From Thermoanaerobaculia bacterium (GTDB lineage: Bacteria; Acidobacteriota; Thermoanaerobaculia; Gp7-AA8): 64,000 nt of DNA. This document shows, in pieces, positions 2,951 to 59,791 of this stretch. The position numbers were made by a program, and so were the translations under genes. Location of the stretch: the NCBI GenBank assembly GCA_035516895.1, contig DATIZY010000017.1:3472-67471 (forward strand), given 5' to 3'. Under the pieces are notes generated by a model. That model saw only the letters and a program-made list of their open reading frames with translations, had not been told where the DNA came from and searched no databases. Each line of letters begins with the position of its first letter. Position 1 is the first letter of the stretch.

Positions 2951-3979
2951 TCATCGCCCGGCGCGCAGCACGAGCGGCATCGCCCAGTCCTGCCGCGCGG
3001 TCGCGATGTCGCGGCTGAAACGCAGCGTCGCGCCGTCGGACATCCACCGTCCGTCGCTGCAGCGTGAGATGGTCTCGATCGTTCTGCCCGTGCGAATGCG
3101 AATCGCGTTGGCCGTCGCCTCGCGCTCGGCGCGGTAGCGGAAGGCACGACGCCAGACGGACGAAAGATCGGTGCCGAGGTCGTTCATGGGCGCGTGCACG
3201 TCGCAGCGGGTCTCGCGGAAGAGCCCTTCGGCGATGCGGCGATCGCGCTCGATCGAATCGGCGAGCCACTTCGTCGGAAAAAATTGGGCGCCGCTCTTCC
3301 AATACGCCGCCGCCTGATATTGAAACGCTTCGAGCAGCCGCGGTACGACGTCGCGCTGCTGCAGCTCGGCGAACCAGGCAGGCGCGGGCAGCGGCATCTT
3401 CCAGCCGATGGCGTTGATCATGCGCAGCATCGACAGCGCCGCCGTCTGCGCCATCATTTCCTGCTGCGGCTCGAGCGAACGAGCGAGGTTCCACACCGCG
3501 TGCAAGTCGTCCCAGGCTCCCGGATCGTGCTTTCCCGCTTTCATGAGCGCGCTCGCGATGAGCGACCTCGCGATCGTCATCTGCATCCCGCGTCTCTCCG
3601 CCGTTTCGTTGTTGCCGACGCCGCTGATGCCGCCGTTGCGCTTCCAGACAATCCCCTCGCGCAGCAGGAGCTCGCGGATTGCGGAGACGTCGGGCAGGAC
3701 CGGCGGCTCGCCGATCGTGAGATCGCCGCGCGCGATCTCCCGCGCGACGTAGCCATCCAGTTGATCGCTTTTCGCCAGCGCGCCGCCGAGCACGGCCAAT
3801 TTCGCAGATGGCGCGTTGCCTGACAGCGGCGGGTACCGGCCGGCGACGGAGTCGAGCGTGCCCAGCCCCGCCGGCCACGTCTGCGCGGCGGCAACGGCAA
3901 CGGGTCGTTCGGCGCGGAACCAGGAGATGACCCAGACGACGAGGGCGAGCGCGGCCACGACGCCCAACGCTTTTTTCAT
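2951..3979 (-). CDS. Hypothetical signal-anchored protein
   Basis: N-terminal [21 protein letters not shown] signal/anchor and protein-like composition. Lies 10 nt downstream of the next minus-strand gene, so probably in an operon with it. Confidence 0.45.
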
Positions 3980-3988
3980 GTTCGACGT

Positions 3989-5302
3989 CTAGCGCGAGGA
4001 CGCGGCTGTGACCTTCGCCGTCGCACGCGCGAGATCGGCCACCGACGCCGCGCGATTCGGCGTCCGCAGCAGCGATGCGTTGAATTGCTCGATCGCGTCG
4101 CTCGTCCTGCCGTCCTGCAGGAGCAGCTCTCCGTAGAGCTCGTGCGCCGGCTTGAAATTCTCGGGCGGGCCCGACGGCACGCCGAGCGTCTCCTCCGCGG
4201 CAACGGCGAGCTCTGCCTGGTGCAGCGCATCGTTGAGGTTCCCGCGAGCCGCGTCGAGGAGCGCCGTCGCTTCGAGGCGATCCGTTTCCGATTCGATCTG
4301 CGGCAGCGATTTCCCGGCGTCGTCGAGCCGCTTGCCGGCGATCGACTGCAGCGTTTTGCCGAGCGGCTCGTCGAACGTGAAGCTGTCCCAATCGCCGGTC
4401 TCGACCGCGTATCGCACCTTCATCGTCTCCTTCGGCCGGCCGGTCGCCTCGTCGATGAGCTTCTTCGCTTCGGCGTAGCGGTGCATCTGCAGATCGGCGT
4501 ACTCGAGCCACGAGAGGCTGTGCATGTCGGGCTGCTTCCACTGTTTCGACAGCGCGAATGCGGCCTGATTCGATCGCGCGGTCTCTTCCCACATCCCGAG
4601 CTGCAGAAAGATGTGCGACGGCATGTGCAGCGCGTGCGGCGCCGACGAAGCCACGTTCGCGTAGCGGCGCGCGGCGCGAAGCCCGAGCGGCGCAAGAATT
4701 GGATCGTCATACGCGTGGATCATGTAGTGCAGCACGCCGGGATGATCGGGGTGCGACGGCAGCAGGTCCTCGAGGATCGCCGCCGCGCGGATCGATCTCC
4801 GCTCGTCGCGCTGATGCCATTCGCGTGCGCCGAGGATCGAGAGGGCCCAGAAGGTCTGCGCTTCGACATCCGCCGGAAACGCGCGCGCGAGCCGCTCCAT
4901 CGCCGCTTCGTACGCTTCGTTGCGCTGCTGCCTCTCGCCGCGGCCGTACAGCGCTTCGACCGCTTCGATGTAGCCGCGCTCGCGCGGAGTGGCGGAGGCG
5001 GCGAGCGGAATCATCTCCTGGACGACGCGCCGGCCGCCCTCGATGTCCTGCTGGTTCCAGAGCGGATGGTTGTACGTCATGGCCTCGCCCCAGTAAGCGA
5101 GGGCGAACTTCGGATCGACCTTCTGCGCCTCGCGGAACGCCTCGGCCGCCTGCGGATACGCGAAGTTGTGCAGGAGCAGCACGCCCCGGAGAAACGCCGG
5201 CTGTGCTTCCGGCGTGCCCGAGTTCGGGAAAACGATCGTGCCGAGGTGGTTCTGAGCGTGCGCGGCGGCGGCGAGGAGAGCGATCAGGAAGAATTTCCGC
5301 AT
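3989..5302 (-). CDS. Secreted TPR-like repeat protein
   Basis: Signal peptide MRKFFLIALLAAAAHAQ. Helical repeat-like segments (AEAFREAQKVDPKFALAYWGEAMTY...) consistent with a TPR-like fold. Confidence 0.5.
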   Translation of the reverse strand: MRKFFLIALLAAAAHAQNHLGTIVFPNSGTPEAQPAFLRGVLLLHNFAYPQAAEAFREAQKVDPKFALAYWGEAMTYNHPLWNQQDIEGGRRVVQEMIPLAASATPRERGYIEAVEALYGRGERQQRNEAYEAAMERLARAFPADVEAQTFWALSILGAREWHQRDERRSIRAAAILEDLLPSHPDHPGVLHYMIHAYDDPILAPLGLRAARRYANVASSAPHALHMPSHIFLQLGMWEETARSNQAAFALSKQWKQPDMHSLSWLEYADLQMHRYAEAKKLIDEATGRPKETMKVRYAVETGDWDSFTFDEPLGKTLQSIAGKRLDDAGKSLPQIESETDRLEATALLDAARGNLNDALHQAELAVAAEETLGVPSGPPENFKPAHELYGELLLQDGRTSDAIEQFNASLLRTPNRAASVADLARATAKVTAASSR

Positions 5303-55107: not shown

Positions 55108-55156
55108 GTTGCCGGTCGCCGATGTCGCGCGGCGCGGAAACCGGCAAACGGCAACC

Positions 55157-56504: not shown

Positions 56505-57194
56505 TCACGCGCTCGGCATGTGCACGTACATCGACTGAATCGCCACTTTGCCCGGTCCGGTGAAGCGGTTCATGAACAGAGTGAATCCGCCTAACAAGCC
56601 TGTCGAGAGCCGCTGCGCGATCGTTTCCATCTTGACGTGCGTGTCTTTGTAGAGCCAGCCGCCCGGCTCGACGTCGATCTGCTCGTGCGGCTCGAGCGTT
56701 TTCTCGAAGACGTTGCCGTAGCCGTGAAGCCAGAGGATTCCGCTGCCCTGCCGCGCGTGAAAGCGATCGATGAAGAAGCCGGTGCCGCCGAAGAGAATGT
56801 TGGCGACGCCTTTGACGCGCTCGAAGTCGTAATCGATGTTGCCCGTCGCGGCGAGGAACTGGTGCTCGCGCACGTGGATCTCGTCGCCGTGCTCCATGTG
56901 GATCGCGAAGATGTGTCCGGCGCCGTCGCGGCTGAAGGCGATCTGCCCGCGGCCGGTGGTCTCGGTGATGAAGATCTGCATGCCGGCCATCATTCGCTTG
57001 AACGCGCCGGCCATCGGGCGGACGCCGATGCCGACCGTCGGATTTTTCCAGAGAAGAATGTGATGCTCGAAGTAGACCGGCACGGTGGAGACGTCGACGG
57101 TCAGGACGGGCACGAGCTCGCCGTCGACGTGGTAGGTCACGCCGGCGAAAGTTTCCTCGTGAGCGGCAGTCTTGAGAAGAACGGGTGCAGTCAT
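56505..57194 (-). CDS. AIM24 / TIGR00266-family protein
   Basis: ~229 aa with the conserved AIM24 (DUF124) profile (GELVPVLTVD..., ILFGGTGFFIDRF..., GSGILWLHGYGNVFE...). Confidence 0.65.
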   Translation of the reverse strand: MTAPVLLKTAAHEETFAGVTYHVDGELVPVLTVDVSTVPVYFEHHILLWKNPTVGIGVRPMAGAFKRMMAGMQIFITETTGRGQIAFSRDGAGHIFAIHMEHGDEIHVREHQFLAATGNIDYDFERVKGVANILFGGTGFFIDRFHARQGSGILWLHGYGNVFEKTLEPHEQIDVEPGGWLYKDTHVKMETIAQRLSTGLLGGFTLFMNRFTGPGKVAIQSMYVHMPSA

Positions 57195-57196
57195 TC

Positions 57197-57730
57197 TTAC
57201 AACCTCAAAATCAATTTCGTCATGTCGTGCTGATTGCCGTCGGGATCGGTTCCGTAACCGGGCTGGGGGAACGCCTTGAATCCGAGGTTCTCGAGCGTTC
57301 GGACGGCGTCGGCCTCGAGGTCGGAGATCAGCATCGCATTGACGTGGCGCAGGCCGCGGTCGCGTGCGATATCGATCAGGTGATTCACGAGCAGGGTGCC
57401 GAGGCCGCGGCCGCGGAATTGCGGGTTGAGCATCCATTTGATTCTGCCGACGAGGCGCAGCGGTCCGCCGAGCCGGTGCAGCGTCGCGTCGGCGAGGATC
57501 TCGTTTCCCTTTAGCGCGAGAAGCGGGAACACCTTTGCAAAGTCGATGTTCTGTCCCCACTGCTCGATGAGCGCGCGGTTGTCGACCATGTCCCAGGCGA
57601 AGCGTTTGTAATTGTCCGGCAGTCGGTGAAAAAAGTCGTAGAGCGCATCGACGTCATGCTCGCCGAACGGCCGGAGCATGACGCGCGTACCGTCGCGGAG
57701 GACGGCTTCCTGCGGATAGCGATGCAGCAT
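57197..57730 (-). CDS. GNAT-family N-acetyltransferase
   Basis: Acetyl-CoA binding motif A (RGRGLGTLLVNHLIDIAR) and overall GNAT fold. Separated by 2 nt from the downstream AIM24 gene. Confidence 0.7.
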   Translation of the reverse strand: MLHRYPQEAVLRDGTRVMLRPFGEHDVDALYDFFHRLPDNYKRFAWDMVDNRALIEQWGQNIDFAKVFPLLALKGNEILADATLHRLGGPLRLVGRIKWMLNPQFRGRGLGTLLVNHLIDIARDRGLRHVNAMLISDLEADAVRTLENLGFKAFPQPGYGTDPDGNQHDMTKLILRL

Positions 57731-57751
57731 CTCTCGCCCGCGCATTGTAGT

Positions 57752-58795
57752 GGGGTCAGAGCTGTACTTGTGATTTTTCTACGATGCGTAGAGTGCCGAA
57801 AGTGCCGAGGTACTCTCGGTCGCTATGTCACGACCGCTTCGACTCGAATTTCCCGGCTCCGTTCACCACGTCACCTCTCGCGGCAATGCGCGTCAATGCA
57901 TCTTCTTCGACGACGCCGATCGCGAATGCTTTCTCGATCTGCTCGGCACTGCGGTCAAACGTTTCGACTGGATCGTGACCGCGTACGTGCTGATGTCGAA
58001 TCATTTTCATTTCGTCGCTCAACTGACGGATGAGAATCTCTCGCGCGGCATGCAGTGGCTGAACGCGCAATACGCGGCGGCGTTCAATCGCGATCATGGC
58101 CGCTCCGGACATGTGCTCCAGGGACGGCCTGACATCCGGCTCATCGATCACGAAACGTACGCGCTCGAGGTGCTGCGCTACGTTGTGCTGAATCCGGTTC
58201 GCGCGCGCATGGTCCGTAAGCCGGAGTACTACGAGTGGAGCAGCCATCGCGCGGTGCTCGGGGTCGCGACGGCTCCGGAGTGGCTGGCGGTCGACGACGT
58301 GCTTATGCAGTTCGGATCGGAGCGCGACCTCGCTCGCGCCGCCTATCGCGAGTTCGTCGATGCGGCGATCGGATCGACGGAATCGCCCTGGGCGAACCTC
58401 GTCGGACAGATGTACCTCGGCAGTGAAGGGTGGATGCAGCGCGTGCGCGAACGCGTCGATCTGAAGCCGCGCTCTTCCGATCATCGGCGATCGCAGCGGT
58501 TCCTTCCATCGGCAACCATGGCAGAGATCATCCGGCGCGTGGCCGAAGCCTTTTCGATCGAGGAGACCCAGATCCGTTTTGGACGCGGCGGTCTGGCGCG
58601 GACCGTTGCGGCCTGGGTCGCCTGGCACGAGGGTCAGCTCACGGCGACCGAGATTGCTGCCGGCCTTCGGTTTCGCTGTGCGGGTTATGTCGCTCGGCTC
58701 GTACGGCGCTGTGAGCGGGAGCTGACGCGCGATGCCAGGCTTCAGCAGATCGTCTCTACGATTTGTAGAAAAATCACAAGTACAGCTCTGACCCC
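57752..58795 (+). mobile_element. 1044-bp element bounded by ~42-bp terminal inverted repeats (GGGGTCAGAGCTGTACTTGTGATTTTTCTAC...TAGAG) carrying a REP-associated tyrosine transposase-like gene
   Basis: Left IR 57752..57793 and right IR 58754..58795 are reverse complements: 31 nt perfect, a 6-nt mismatch block, then 5 nt perfect. A possible TAGT direct repeat flanks both ends. Confidence 0.65.
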
Positions 58796-58799
58796 CTAG
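57825..58799 (+). CDS. REP-associated tyrosine transposase-like protein (HuH Y1 transposase domain plus C-terminal DnaA-like HTH)
   Basis: Matches the RAYT-like family: HHVTSRGNARQCIF, the HuH motif region YVLMSNHFHFV, and GHVLQGR ... YVVLNPVRA. The C-terminal ~90 aa resemble the DnaA C-terminal helix-turn-helix. The last codons lie inside the right inverted repeat. Confidence 0.75.
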   Translation: MSRPLRLEFPGSVHHVTSRGNARQCIFFDDADRECFLDLLGTAVKRFDWIVTAYVLMSNHFHFVAQLTDENLSRGMQWLNAQYAAAFNRDHGRSGHVLQGRPDIRLIDHETYALEVLRYVVLNPVRARMVRKPEYYEWSSHRAVLGVATAPEWLAVDDVLMQFGSERDLARAAYREFVDAAIGSTESPWANLVGQMYLGSEGWMQRVRERVDLKPRSSDHRRSQRFLPSATMAEIIRRVAEAFSIEETQIRFGRGGLARTVAAWVAWHEGQLTATEIAAGLRFRCAGYVARLVRRCERELTRDARLQQIVSTICRKITSTALTP

Positions 58800-59791
58800 T
58801 CGTCGAGGGCGCCGTCGGGGAGGGCAACGCGGCGCCCGCTGATCGCTGCAACGATACGCGGCACGTGCACATGGCACGTCTCGACGATCACGCTCACCTT
58901 TCGCGGCGGCGTCCCGGCGACGGCCGTGCCGGCGATGAAGACGCCCGGCACGTTCGTCTCCATCGTCTCGGGATCGTGCAGCGGCGCGCGCTCGGGGCCC
59001 CGCAGCTGCACGCCTAACATCTCGAACAGCGTCGGATCCTGACGGTATCCCGTCATCAGCAGCACGAAATCAAACGGGAGCTCTTTCCCGGACAGAACGA
59101 CCGAATCGGGACGGATCGCGTCGACGCATGTTCGCGGCAGAAAGCGCACATGGCCGTCGCGAACGAGCGCGCGAACTTCGGGCAGCAGCCAGAACTTGAC
59201 GACTTTCGGATCGAAGTCGTCGCCGCGATAGCTGAGGGTGACGTCGGCTCCGGCGCGATGGCAGCGCACCGCCGCCTCCACCGCCGAGTTTCGCCCGCCG
59301 ACGACCAGCAGCCGCTTGCCGAAATACTTGTGCGGATCGCCGAGGTAGTGCGAGACGTGCGGGAGGTCCTCGCCGGGGACGTCGATCAGCCGCGGCGCGT
59401 GAAATGCGCCGATTGCCAGCACCACCACTTCGACGCGAATGCGGGCCCGGGTCGTCTCCAGCTCGAAGCCGCCGGGCCTCTTCTGAATGTCGACGACGCG
59501 CTCATACGTCCGGACTGTCAGGCCGAAATGCTGGACGAGCGCGCGGAGGTAGGCGAGGAACTCCTCGCGCGTGATCTTCTGCTGATTCGCCGTCTGGATC
59601 GGCATGCCGGCGAGCGCGAGCCGGTCGGAGCTCGAATGAAAGAGCATCAGCGGCGGATACCACTCGATCGTCGAGCCGATCTGCGCGGCGTCGAGCTGCA
59701 CGTAGTCGATGCCCGCTTGCTTCAACGCGACGGCGAGCTCGAGTCCGATCGGCCCCGCGCCGATCACCGCAACAGGATGCGACTCGATCAT
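58796..59791 (-). CDS. FAD-dependent pyridine nucleotide-disulfide oxidoreductase (YpdA / thioredoxin-reductase-like)
   Basis: N-terminal dinucleotide fold VAVIGAGPIGLELA, a second Rossmann motif LLVVGGRNSAVEAA, and C-terminal GVFIAGTAV. 331 aa. Confidence 0.75.
   Translation of the reverse strand: MIESHPVAVIGAGPIGLELAVALKQAGIDYVQLDAAQIGSTIEWYPPLMLFHSSSDRLALAGMPIQTANQQKITREEFLAYLRALVQHFGLTVRTYERVVDIQKRPGGFELETTRARIRVEVVVLAIGAFHAPRLIDVPGEDLPHVSHYLGDPHKYFGKRLLVVGGRNSAVEAAVRCHRAGADVTLSYRGDDFDPKVVKFWLLPEVRALVRDGHVRFLPRTCVDAIRPDSVVLSGKELPFDFVLLMTGYRQDPTLFEMLGVQLRGPERAPLHDPETMETNVPGVFIAGTAVAGTPPRKVSVIVETCHVHVPRIVAAISGRRVALPDGALDD

What the first reader, a model, noticed from the sequence alone, without database searches (positions are those of the whole stretch)
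57752..58799. RAYT-like Y1 (HuH) transposase gene bounded by 42-bp terminal inverted repeats, forming an IS-like unit inserted between GNAT and oxidoreductase genes
The protein has the HuH/Y1 catalytic core typical of REP-associated tyrosine transposases plus a DnaA-C-like HTH. Unusually, it is flanked by long, nearly perfect terminal inverted repeats (31/31 + 5/5 nt), a structure more typical of DDE insertion sequences than of IS200/RAYT elements. RAYTs normally sit between short REP hairpins. The right IR overlaps the last codons and the stop codon. A possible TAGT target duplication flanks the element. The element lies 21 bp from the GNAT gene start and directly abuts the 3' end of the convergent oxidoreductase gene, so the insertion may affect the expression or the C-terminus of neighbours.
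Basis: partly seen in the sequence, partly recalled or inferred. Interest (0 to 1): 0.6.

Follow-up and report, generated by a model that had tools for sequence, protein, structure and literature searches.

The report
Known TIR-flanked RAYT-like transposase gene (TIRtron)
This is a real gene for a single-strand-DNA "tyrosine transposase" bracketed by 42-bp inverted repeats, but it belongs to an already described class (TIRtron/TIRYT) and has been inherited in place for a long time, so it is not a fresh insertion.

Summary
Arms 57752-57793 and 58754-58795 are 42 nt and 93% complementary, with the outer 31 nt perfect. They bracket a 324-aa ORF with an HuH/Y1 domain (NHFH, Y119-x3-NP) and a DnaA-domain-IV-like HTH.

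The interpretation needs correcting. This architecture was described in 2013 as a TIRtron, whose protein is a TIRYT (TIR-associated tyrosine transposase). It includes an Acidobacteria group and a GGGGWSAS terminal motif; here the terminus is GGGGTCAG.

It is not a recent IS insertion. Orthologues at 65-75% identity sit at the same GNAT/oxidoreductase site, with synonymous sites saturated and dN/dS of 0.14-0.22. More distant relatives occupy two other fixed sites.

All ten lineages keep the arm plan TA-GGGTCAG, a variable ~15 nt, T5, CYAC-N5-GTRG. The variable core differs between lineages but matches between the two arms of each lineage (19 of 28 pairs changed on both sides).

Three gene-less "minis", each two arms forming a hairpin, exist in related contigs, one with clean empty sites. 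The TAGT duplication is not reproduced, and the neighbour's C-terminus is native.

This is a new member of a known kind. Genome-wide repeat copy number could not be measured.

The parts
57752..57793 (.). Left terminal inverted repeat. Layout: GGGGTCAG (57752-59), lineage-specific core (57760-73), T5 (57774-78), CTAC-GATGC-GTAG (57779-91), AG.
   Evidence: The repeat pair was found and occurs only twice in the window. The same architecture is present in 10 lineages. An nhmmer model of the arms scores it at E=6.5e-10.
58754..58795 (.). Right terminal inverted repeat. Layout: CT, CTAC-GATTT-GTAG (58756-68), A5 (58769-73), core (58774-87), CTGACCCC (58788-95). It encodes the last 14 codons of the ORF.
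   Evidence: The C-terminal tail is conserved as DNA motifs (S-T..R-K comes from CTAC..GTAGAAA) rather than as protein.
57825..58799 (+). TIRYT gene, 324 aa (Y1 HuH transposase class 2, long form).
   Evidence: Pfam and NCBIfam matches. More than 5,700 homologues. 35,146 representatives at 50% identity with E<=1e-3. dN/dS of 0.14-0.22.
57825..58274 (+). HuH/Y1 catalytic domain (about aa 1-150). HuH codons lie at 58002-58010 and the catalytic Tyr119 codon at 58179-58181.
   Evidence: These residues are invariant columns. Foldseek's best hit is 4er8_A (TnpA_REP), E=5.7e-7, followed by the IS608 and ISDra2 TnpA structures.
58506..58790 (+). C-terminal DnaA-domain-IV-like helix-turn-helix domain (about aa 228-322).
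   Evidence: Profile against the PDB: 2hcb and 1l8q, E=0.0056. Foldseek: 3pvp and 1j1v, TM 0.86-0.87, rmsd 1.5-1.6 A. Model pLDDT is about 90 in this region.
58796..58799 (.). CTAG: the overlapping stop codons of the TIRYT (+, TAG 58797-99) and of the convergent Pyr_redox_3 gene (-, 58796-98), directly abutting the right arm.
   Evidence: The oxidoreductase TAG is native, because it is present in orthologues without the element (L041, L042).
57746..57751 (.). Outer left flank TGTAGT, lying between the GNAT start region and the left arm. It contains the recurrent TA(G).
   Evidence: A similar CATTTGTAG flanks both ends of mini L034.
57197..57745 (-). Context only: the GNAT acetyltransferase gene. 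Its likely start is M6 at 57730, 21 bp from the arm. It is inverted relative to lineages L003 and L007.
58796..59791 (-). Context only: the convergent Pyr_redox_3 oxidoreductase gene, followed by TerB.

Best explanation
The locus is a TIRtron. A single-copy gene for a TIR-associated tyrosine transposase (TIRYT; Y1 HuH class 2, subclass 2.1, with a DnaA-domain-IV-like HTH) sits between its own cognate terminal inverted repeats in a Thermoanaerobaculia (Acidobacteriota) genome.

Shown by the data:
- The gene-plus-arms unit has been inherited vertically at the GNAT/Pyr_redox_3 site under purifying selection.
- Deeper relatives occupy two other fixed sites.
- The two arms of each lineage are kept matched while their central ~15 nt diverge freely between lineages.
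- Gene-less two-arm minis exist. They are REPIN/MITE-like, fold as long hairpins, and include one with demonstrable empty sites.

Inferred, not shown:
- The HuH domain nicks and rejoins single-stranded DNA at the arm termini, next to TA(G), as TnpA_REP and IS608 TnpA do at their sites.
- The HTH domain anchors the protein on the conserved T5-CYAC-N5-GTRG module.
- The arms are the cis sites through which the protein mobilises the minis in trans, and only rarely itself.
- Arm-to-arm matching is maintained because both ends must be read by the same protein, or must pair with each other as single strands.
For: Protein identity.

Same site in four diverged lineages: W, L003/5, L007 and L038. Flanking proteins are 77-90% identical and the TIRYT is 65-75% identical. 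The unrooted topology is congruent. Synonymous divergence (dS) is 1.1-1.8 and dN/dS is 0.14-0.22.

Other fixed contexts: Tricorn/Aldedh in 5 lineages and Chalcone_3/GH77 in 1.

Arms are present in all 10 lineages with one architecture. Left-versus-right identity within a lineage is 94-95%, against 52-62% between lineages. In the 28-pair arm helix, 19 pairs changed on both sides and 95.9% of cells are paired. None of 500 shuffles reaches this, and slid controls give 40-45%. The N5 spacers and inner flanks do not match between arms (32-35%), which argues against simple recent copying of whole ends.

Minis:
- L034 and L035 carry arms 97-100% identical to the window/L005-type arms and have window-like composition (tetranucleotide r 0.97-0.98).
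- A third mini lies in L038, 1.9 kb from that contig's TIRYT. The same junction is empty in the window, L003, L007 and L041.
- Hairpin free energies are -38 to -48 kcal/mol, z -11 to -14.

Literature: TIRtron/TIRYT with the GGGGWSAS motif, TIRs overlapping the gene's 3' end, TIR dimers, and an Acidobacteria group (PMC3733652). Subclass 2.1 with a Bac_DnaA_C-like C-terminus, no REPs and a Y---NP signature (PMC6006769).
Against: - No biochemical activity of any TIRYT is reported in the papers read.
- Genome-wide copy number of the arms could not be measured. My first two collection scans used a mis-designed pattern, and the corrected genome scan found no genome of this lineage.
- Only the flanking pair occurs in the 64-kb window and in two 21-kb loci.
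- Minis L034 and L035 lie on other contigs and are not proven to share a genome with a TIRYT.
- The L038 mini has a different variable core from the resident TIRYT arms.
- The CYAC/GTRG mini-hairpin shows no compensatory change, and its C.A mismatches are uncompensated. It may therefore be a sequence motif and not a hairpin.
- DnaA base-contact residues are not conserved (alignment), so the HTH target is unknown.
Confidence: 0.75

Rival explanations
1. It is an autonomous, recently inserted IS-like element. On this view a mobile Y1 transposon with TIRs and a TAGT target duplication has recently landed between GNAT and the oxidoreductase.
For: TIRs bound the gene tightly. The family occupies at least three genomic contexts. 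Gene-less derivatives with identical arms exist. Bertels Group 1 (= subclass 2.1) has the most IS-like statistics among RAYTs, with 6% duplicates and 1.2% on plasmids (PMC5581495).
Against: The element is at the same site in four lineages with dS above 1 and congruent flanks. There is a single copy in 64 kb. TAGT is not repeated elsewhere. The element's GC content (0.62) is close to that of its flanks (0.63-0.65). The oxidoreductase C-terminus and stop codon are native.
Confidence: 0.1
2. The inverted repeat is primarily an RNA feature. On this view the 5' UTR pairs with the 3' end of the coding region to form a ~30-40 bp duplex that controls stability or translation of the TIRYT mRNA, for example as an RNase III substrate. 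The covariation would reflect RNA pairing.
For: There is strong arm-to-arm covariation. The left arm lies 31-62 nt upstream of the ATG and the right arm lies inside the ORF end in all lineages, so both could be on one transcript.
Against: The same arms occur as gene-less minis at unrelated sites. Arm mismatches show no bias toward G.U-compatible changes on the mRNA strand: about 7 are plus-strand compatible, 6 are minus-strand compatible and 9 are transversions (read). There is no Rfam match and no promoter or terminator consensus hit. The outer TA-GGGG termini and the GGGGWSAS motif are shared with TIRtrons of other phyla.
Confidence: 0.08
3. It is a classical REPtron: a RAYT flanked by GTAG-tagged REP hairpins. 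The CTAC-N5-GTAG module would be the REP and the rest of the arm would be incidental.
For: GTAG, the hallmark of RAYT-associated REPs (PMC3733652, PMC6006769), is invariant in all 20 arms at a fixed distance from the terminus. The best structural match is TnpA_REP bound to a REP hairpin.
Against: The 4-bp stem is weak: folding is not better than shuffles, z -0.6 to -1.8. It shows no compensatory change. The NCBIfam REP_Tyr_transpos score is below its cut-off. The 27-nt outer part is the part that co-varies and that is retained in the minis. No dispersed REP family is seen in the window.
Confidence: 0.05

Closest known systems
TIRtrons / TIRYTs (Di Nocera, De Gregorio & Rocco 2013, BMC Genomics 14:522, PMC3733652), especially the Acidobacteria group (Koribacter versatilis, Terriglobus saanensis, Acidobacterium capsulatum, Granulicella mallensis)
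   Same: A RAYT-like Y1 protein that is longer than RAYTs. The gene is flanked by TIRs instead of REPs. The outer motif GGGGWSAS fits (GGGGTCAG here). The TIR can overlap the gene's 3' end. Some TIRs also occur as dimers or repeat families. The host phylum is Acidobacteriota.
   Different: The host class is Thermoanaerobaculia, which is not among the genomes listed in the passages I read from that paper. The following features are not mentioned in the passages I read: deep synteny, arm covariation, the universal T5-CYAC-N5-GTRG module, and the TA(G) abutment.
TnpA_Y1 class 2, subclass 2.1/2.1.2 (Quentin et al. 2018, BMC Genomics 19:475, PMC6006769), which corresponds to RAYT Group 1 of Bertels et al. 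2017 (PMC5581495)
   Same: Y---NP tyrosine motif. Long protein. C-terminal Bac_DnaA_C-like HTH. No REPs nearby. Low copy number.
   Different: Assignment here rests on motifs, domain architecture and structure. It was not made by placing the protein in their tree or MCL clusters. Pfam Bac_DnaA_C does not hit this sequence directly.
E. coli TnpA_REP / REPtron and REPIN-RAYT systems (Nunvar 2010; Bertels & Rainey 2011; PDB 4er8)
   Same: Best structural match for the catalytic domain. A single-copy, vertically inherited gene flanked by its cognate repeats in inverted orientation. Non-autonomous two-arm hairpin derivatives exist (REPIN-like minis). A GTAG tetranucleotide lies in the cis element.
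   Different: The arms are 42-nt non-palindromic TIRs, not 20-40-nt REP hairpins. The protein is twice as long and carries an extra HTH domain. The NCBIfam RAYT model scores below its cut-off. Abundance of the repeats is unknown and appears low locally.
IS200/IS605 (IS608, ISDra2) TnpA
   Same: HuH/Y1 fold (Foldseek E about 1e-3). No target duplication. The element abuts a short specific flank sequence (TA(G) here; TTAC for IS608, from my own knowledge of that system).
   Different: IS200/IS605 ends are asymmetric subterminal hairpins without TIRs, and the elements are multi-copy and mobile. Here the ends are symmetric TIRs and the gene is stationary.

Membership tests
TIRtron / TIRYT (Di Nocera 2013) | RAYT-like Y1 protein with an HuH motif and a catalytic Tyr | tested here: met
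   NHFH and Y119 are invariant. Pfam Y1_Tnp scores above its cut-off. The fold matches 4er8.
TIRtron / TIRYT (Di Nocera 2013) | Gene flanked by terminal inverted repeats rather than REP palindromes | tested here: met
   42-nt arms in the window and arms in all 10 lineages examined.
TIRtron / TIRYT (Di Nocera 2013) | Outer TIR motif GGGGWSAS (present in the majority type) | tested here: met
   GGGGTCAG at 57752-57759 and its complement at 58788-58795. GGGTCA[GC] is present in 8 of 10 lineages.
TIRtron / TIRYT (Di Nocera 2013) | In some genomes the TIRs belong to a dispersed repeat family (singles, dimers, clusters) | tested here: inconclusive
   Three two-arm minis were found in related contigs. 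No extra copy occurs in the 64-kb window. The whole-genome count was not obtainable.
TIRtron / TIRYT (Di Nocera 2013) | Sequence membership in the Acidobacteria TIRYT subgroup | not tested
Only the host taxonomy is consistent: homologues are named Thermoanaerobaculia/Acidobacteriota.
TnpA_Y1 class 2, subclass 2.1 (Quentin 2018) | Y---NP tyrosine motif | tested here: met
   R118-Y119-V-V-L122-N123-P124, invariant except at the two V positions. The signature is as stated in PMC6006769.
TnpA_Y1 class 2, subclass 2.1 (Quentin 2018) | C-terminal HTH related to Bac_DnaA_C, HTH_23 or HTH_28 | tested here: met
   Pfam on the single sequence is negative. The family profile hits DnaA domain IV at E=0.0056. 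The predicted structure superposes on DnaA DNA-binding domains at TM 0.86-0.87.
RAYT sensu stricto / REPtron | Scores above the NCBIfam NF047646 (REP_Tyr_transpos, equivalog) cut-off | tested here: not met
   66 bits against a cut-off of 80.
RAYT sensu stricto / REPtron | Flanked by GTAG-tagged REP hairpins that are abundant in the genome | tested here: not met
   Only a 4-bp CYAC/GTRG module is present. Its folding is not better than shuffles and it shows no compensatory change. No dispersed copies occur in the window. Genome-wide abundance is not testable here.
Autonomous IS200/IS605 element | Multiple near-identical copies, evidence of recent transposition, and asymmetric hairpin ends without TIRs | tested here: not met
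   The gene is single-copy and syntenic across lineages with saturated dS. The ends are symmetric TIRs.
DDE-type insertion sequence (TIR plus target-site duplication) | DDE transposase and direct target duplication | tested here: not met
   The only domains are Y1_Tnp and an HTH. TAGT is not reproduced in other lineages. The flanks are TA(G) in inverted orientation.

The most novel reading that the evidence does not exclude
TIRtrons of this clade may be long-lived, vertically inherited "mother" loci whose two ends are held together by DNA-DNA complementarity rather than by a protein dimer. That would explain why 19 of 28 arm positions co-vary while the internal N5 spacers do not. On this reading they insert, and seed hairpin minis, precisely 3' of TA(G), often a neighbour's TAG stop codon. 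The conserved T5-CYAC-N5-GTRG module would be the docking site of the DnaA-like domain. Minis would then be able to supply or abut the stop and start codons of tightly packed genes. In L038 a mini separates a formerly overlapping gene pair, with TAG on one side and ATG on the other.
Probability: 0.3. Interest if true: 0.5.

Novelty: new member of a known kind. Interest (0 to 1): 0.3.

Why it matters
The locus itself is ordinary. It adds a Thermoanaerobaculia example to a very large, already described family (35,146 representatives at 50% identity).

The comparison across lineages has some value for people who work on RAYT/REPIN-type domesticated transposases:
- It gives a clean natural series in which the protein, its two cis arms and its gene-less derivatives can be followed over deep time at fixed loci.
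- It shows strong arm-to-arm covariation.
- It shows a GTAG-containing conserved inner module in TIRs that the 2013 paper called unrelated to REPs.
- It suggests a TA(G)-adjacent insertion rule.

All of these are testable with oligonucleotides and purified protein.

Tried and rejected
**1. Mis-designed scan pattern.** My first collection pattern, GGGTCAGAGCTNNNNTTGTGNNTTTCT, had one N too few and does not match the window's own arm.
- It recovered two minis only because each has a T-tract-variant arm.
- The corrected pattern on genome contigs gave only two hits, in compositionally unrelated MAGs. These are L036 and L037, with tetranucleotide r about 0 against the window. I treat them as chance.
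- So the lineage is not among the GTDB representatives, and genome-wide copy number stays unknown.

**2. Searches that returned nothing.**
- Pfam on the C-terminal half alone.
- A single-sequence PDB search.
- Rfam on the region.
- The promoter/terminator consensus scan.

**3. REP-like hairpins within single arms.** Folding is not better than shuffles, and the CYAC/GTRG stem has no compensatory changes.

**4. TAGT target-site duplication.** Rejected on the other lineages.

**5. RNA-pairing reading.** There is no strand bias in wobble-type mismatches.

**6. DnaA-box resemblance of T5-CYAC.** It matches TTWTNCACA at 7-8 of 9 positions. I kept it only as a lead, because the DnaA base-contact motif is not conserved.

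**7. Clean empty site at the GNAT/oxidoreductase junction.** L041 lacks the whole YjbR-GNAT-TIRYT block and L042 has a different neighbour. These loci show that the TAG stop is native, but they do not give a precise excision footprint.
Full report
**Observation.**
- The repeat finder reports arms 57752-57793 and 58754-58795, 42 nt, 93% complementary, 960 nt apart.
- The outer 31 nt (GGGGTCAGAGCTGTACTTGTGATTTTTCTAC) are perfect. They occur only at these two places in the 64-kb window, against none in 100 shuffles.
- Between the arms lies ORF 57825-58799 (+), 324 aa.
- The right arm encodes the last 14 codons. The TAG stop (58797-99) lies just outside the arm and overlaps, in CTAG, the stop of the convergent Pyr_redox_3 gene (58796-98).
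- A GNAT gene starts 6 bp from the left arm, or 21 bp if the conserved Met-6 is the true start.

**Protein.**
- Pfam gives only Y1_Tnp (25.5 bits, cut-off 23). NCBIfam REP_Tyr_transpos scores 66 bits, below its cut-off of 80.
- In an alignment of 40 homologues at 53-74% identity, the HuH motif (N59-H60-F-H62) and the tyrosine motif R118-Y119-x-x-L-N123-P124 are invariant. Y---NP is the signature of TnpA_Y1 class 2, the RAYT side of the superfamily (PMC6006769).
- The DnaA-like HTH is not detected by Pfam on the single sequence.
- A profile of the family hits DnaA domain IV in the PDB (2hcb/1l8q, E=0.0056, profile positions 220-310) and weakly hits TnpA_REP (4er8, E=0.51).
- An AlphaFold2 model (mean pLDDT 84) matches TnpA_REP bound to a REP hairpin best (4er8_A, E=5.7e-7). 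IS608 and ISDra2 TnpA follow. The C-terminal domain superposes on DnaA DNA-binding domains 3pvp and 1j1v at TM 0.86-0.87 and rmsd 1.5-1.6 A.
- The family is very large: more than 5,700 clusters at 90% identity among the scored candidates, and 35,146 representatives at 50% identity with E<=1e-3, many full-length at 33-45% identity.

**The gene is not a recent insertion.**
- Homologues at 65-72% identity (P0003, P0016, P0026) lie at the same place as in the window, between GNAT and the convergent Pyr_redox_3-TerB pair.
- Between these four lineages the flanking proteins are 77-90% identical and the TIRYT is 65-75% identical. Distances fit the same unrooted topology.
- Synonymous sites are saturated (dS 1.1-1.8), and dN/dS of the TIRYT is 0.14-0.22, against 0.07-0.19 for the neighbours.
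- More distant homologues (55-60% identity) sit in two other conserved contexts. Five lineages have Tricorn protease | TIRYT | convergent aldehyde dehydrogenase. One has Chalcone_3 | TIRYT | convergent GH77.
- So the unit has changed place a few times in deep time but is stationary and selected within each clade.
- Homologues and the neighbouring oxidoreductase are named Thermoanaerobaculia/Acidobacteriota by NCBI. The window's own oxidoreductase is 100% identical to one from an NCBI Thermoanaerobaculia MAG contig of 69 kb.

**The arms are a family-wide, co-evolving feature.**
- Every lineage examined (10) has a flanking inverted repeat of 24-48 nt.
- Aligned in arm orientation, all 20 arms share one plan:
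  - TA, usually TAG;
  - a G-run with TCAG (GGTGC in two lineages);
  - about 15 variable nt;
  - T4-6;
  - CYAC;
  - 5 unconserved nt;
  - GTRG-A.
- In the 28 columns from the G-run to the T-tract, left and right arms of one lineage agree at 94% of positions. A left arm and a right arm from different lineages agree at 62%. In the 15-nt core the figures are 95% and 52%.
- Written as a long-range helix, 19 of 28 pairs show changes on both sides and 95.9% of cells are paired. None of 500 shuffles reaches any of the five measures. Sliding the partner by 1-3 columns drops pairing to 40-45%.
- By contrast the N5 spacers and the sequence inside GTRG-A do not match between arms (32-35%). The arms are therefore not simply fresh copies of each other's whole neighbourhood.
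- The CYAC/GTRG tetranucleotides are conserved. Their putative 4-bp hairpin has no compensatory change, and C.A mismatches are left uncompensated. Single arms do not fold better than shuffles. I treat this module as a conserved bipartite motif that contains GTAG, not as a proven hairpin.

**Gene-less derivatives and insertion sites.**
- A mis-designed pattern (see "Mistakes and dead ends" below) still pulled out two contigs with window-like composition (tetranucleotide r 0.97-0.98). One comes from the same JGI sample as a 99%-identical copy of the window locus.
- Each carries two arms only 37 nt apart and no gene: L034:1668-1774 and L035:1290-1382. L035's arms are 100% identical to the window's arm over 27-32 nt. 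L034's arms match the L005-type right arm.
- An nhmmer model of the arms then found a third mini in L038 (7971-8072), 1.9 kb upstream of that contig's TIRYT. It has a different variable core.
- As single strands the minis fold into 30-40-bp hairpins (-38 to -48 kcal/mol, z -11 to -14).
- The L038 mini sits between a 96-aa gene and the arginase gene. In the window, L003, L007 and L041 the same junction is empty, with the two genes 49 bp apart, 13 bp apart, or overlapping. This is direct evidence of insertion polymorphism.
- At the oxidoreductase junction, orthologues without any TIRYT (L041, L042) end in the same ...ALDD-TAG. So the stop codon and C-terminus of the neighbour are native, and the arm begins immediately after it.
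- TA abuts the G-run at 16 of 26 arm ends, whereas TA precedes G at 0.7% of window positions. In most cases the TA is part of a neighbour's TAG stop, although TAG makes up only 29% of stops in these loci.
It is not seen elsewhere.
- Whether TA(G) is the element's own terminus, a preferred target, or a 2-bp duplication cannot be decided from these data.

**Comparison with what is known.**
- Di Nocera, De Gregorio and Rocco (2013, PMC3733652) described RAYT-like genes flanked by TIRs instead of REPs. They named the units TIRtrons and the proteins TIRYTs.
- They reported:
  - a shared terminal motif GGGGWSAS;
  - TIRs that may overlap the gene's 3' end;
  - TIR families present as singles, dimers or clusters in some genomes;
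  - a sharply defined Acidobacteria group.
- Quentin et al. (2018, PMC6006769) placed most TIRYTs in subclass 2.1, which corresponds to Bertels' RAYT Group 1. These are long proteins with a Bac_DnaA_C/HTH-like C-terminus and no REPs nearby.
- Bertels et al. (2017, PMC5581495) found Group 1 mostly single-copy, with modestly repeated flanking 16-mers.
- The window locus meets every one of these features that I could test (see the membership table). The "unusual" combination is therefore an already named kind.
- It fails the stricter RAYT/REPtron criteria (NCBIfam cut-off, REP hairpins). It also fails those of an autonomous IS200/IS605 element or a DDE-type IS.

**Mechanism.**

Shown by the data:
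- a conserved, selected Y1 HuH protein with an added DnaA-IV-like HTH;
- two matched cis arms kept over long periods;
- gene-less arm dimers that have inserted at new sites.

Inferred, by analogy with TnpA_REP and IS608 TnpA, whose fold it shares:
- the catalytic domain cuts and rejoins single-stranded DNA at the arm termini next to TA(G);
- the HTH domain docks on a conserved part of the arm, with T5-CYAC-N5-GTRG as the obvious candidate;
- the protein acts mainly in trans on arm dimers and only very rarely moves its own gene.

Why the arms stay matched is open. Three possibilities remain:
- both ends are read by one co-evolving protein;
- the ends pair with each other as single strands, which would bring the two cleavage sites together for a monomeric enzyme;
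- mismatches are corrected in such a paired intermediate.

The near-complete matching over 28 positions and the sharp loss of matching in the N5 spacers favour a pairing-based explanation, but they do not prove it. An RNA-level role of the pairing is less likely, because the same arms occur without the gene and mismatches show no mRNA-strand wobble bias.

**Mistakes and dead ends.**
- The pattern used had one N too few and did not match the window's own arm. This cost the only metagenome scan.
- The corrected genome scan found only two compositionally unrelated, chance-like hits.
- Locally there is no further copy in the window or in two 21-kb loci.

**Verdict.** The locus is a new member (Thermoanaerobaculia) of a known kind (TIRtron/TIRYT, Y1 class 2 subclass 2.1). 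It was inherited in place and not freshly inserted. Interest is modest, at 0.3. The comparative by-products are leads worth a specialist's test but do not change the category: arm covariation, the GTAG-containing inner module, TA(G) abutment, and minis with empty sites.

Noticed in passing
L038:7971-8072 (empty counterpart in window 55108-55156): A third gene-less two-arm mini lies 1.9 kb upstream of that contig's TIRYT, but its variable core differs from the resident arms. It sits between a 96-aa gene (TAG abutting) and arginase (ATG abutting). In L007 and L041 those two genes overlap. In the window and L003 they are 49 and 13 bp apart without any arm.
   Followed up: yes
window 56505-57745, compared with L003:2367-2900, L007:2385-2918 and L038:9365-9973: The GNAT gene next to the left arm is inverted between lineages: minus strand in the window and L038, plus strand in L003 and L007. 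The window also has an AIM24-family gene (56505-57194, minus strand) between YjbR and GNAT. One breakpoint of the rearrangement lies at or near the left arm.
   Followed up: partly
L041:5001-6975: In a contig from the same metagenome as L028, where the TIRYT is at the Tricorn/Aldedh site, arginase converges directly on, and overlaps, the Pyr_redox_3 gene. The whole YjbR-GNAT-TIRYT block is absent.
   Followed up: partly
L034:1668-1676 and 1766-1774; window 57743-57751: Both convergent genes flanking the L034 mini end in the identical 9 nt CATTTGTAG (His-Leu-stop), so the inverted repeat extends 9 nt beyond the G-run. The window's left flank has a similar CATTGTAGT. The arms of this sub-lineage may be longer than 42 nt, or the mini may have arisen by fold-back copying of one end together with its flank.
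   Followed up: partly
window 57774-57782 and 58765-58773; all arms: The conserved T5-CYAC (TTTTTCCAC in several lineages) matches the relaxed DnaA-box consensus TTWTNCACA at 7-8 of 9 positions. However, the DnaA base-contacting motif (DHTTV.H) is replaced by SSGHVS-like residues in the TIRYT. This is a lead only.
   Followed up: partly
window 57805-57819: A small hairpin, CCGAG-GTACT-CTCGG, lies 5 nt upstream of the TIRYT start codon and covers an SD-like GAGG. Its conservation in other lineages was not checked.
   Followed up: no
L031:2917-2930 and 3978-3991; L028:2899-2914: Some lineages carry short extra repeats of the terminal G-rich unit outside the main arm, for example TAGGGGAT-GGGGTCAG in L031 and a 16-nt direct repeat of the arm end in L028.
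   Followed up: no
L037:3756-3812: This is a chance hit of the corrected pattern in an unrelated low-GC gammaproteobacterial MAG. It is an ordinary terminator-like hairpin (AAAAGGGGTCAGAGC...GCTCTGACCCCTTTT) and is not related to the TIRtron.
   Followed up: yes
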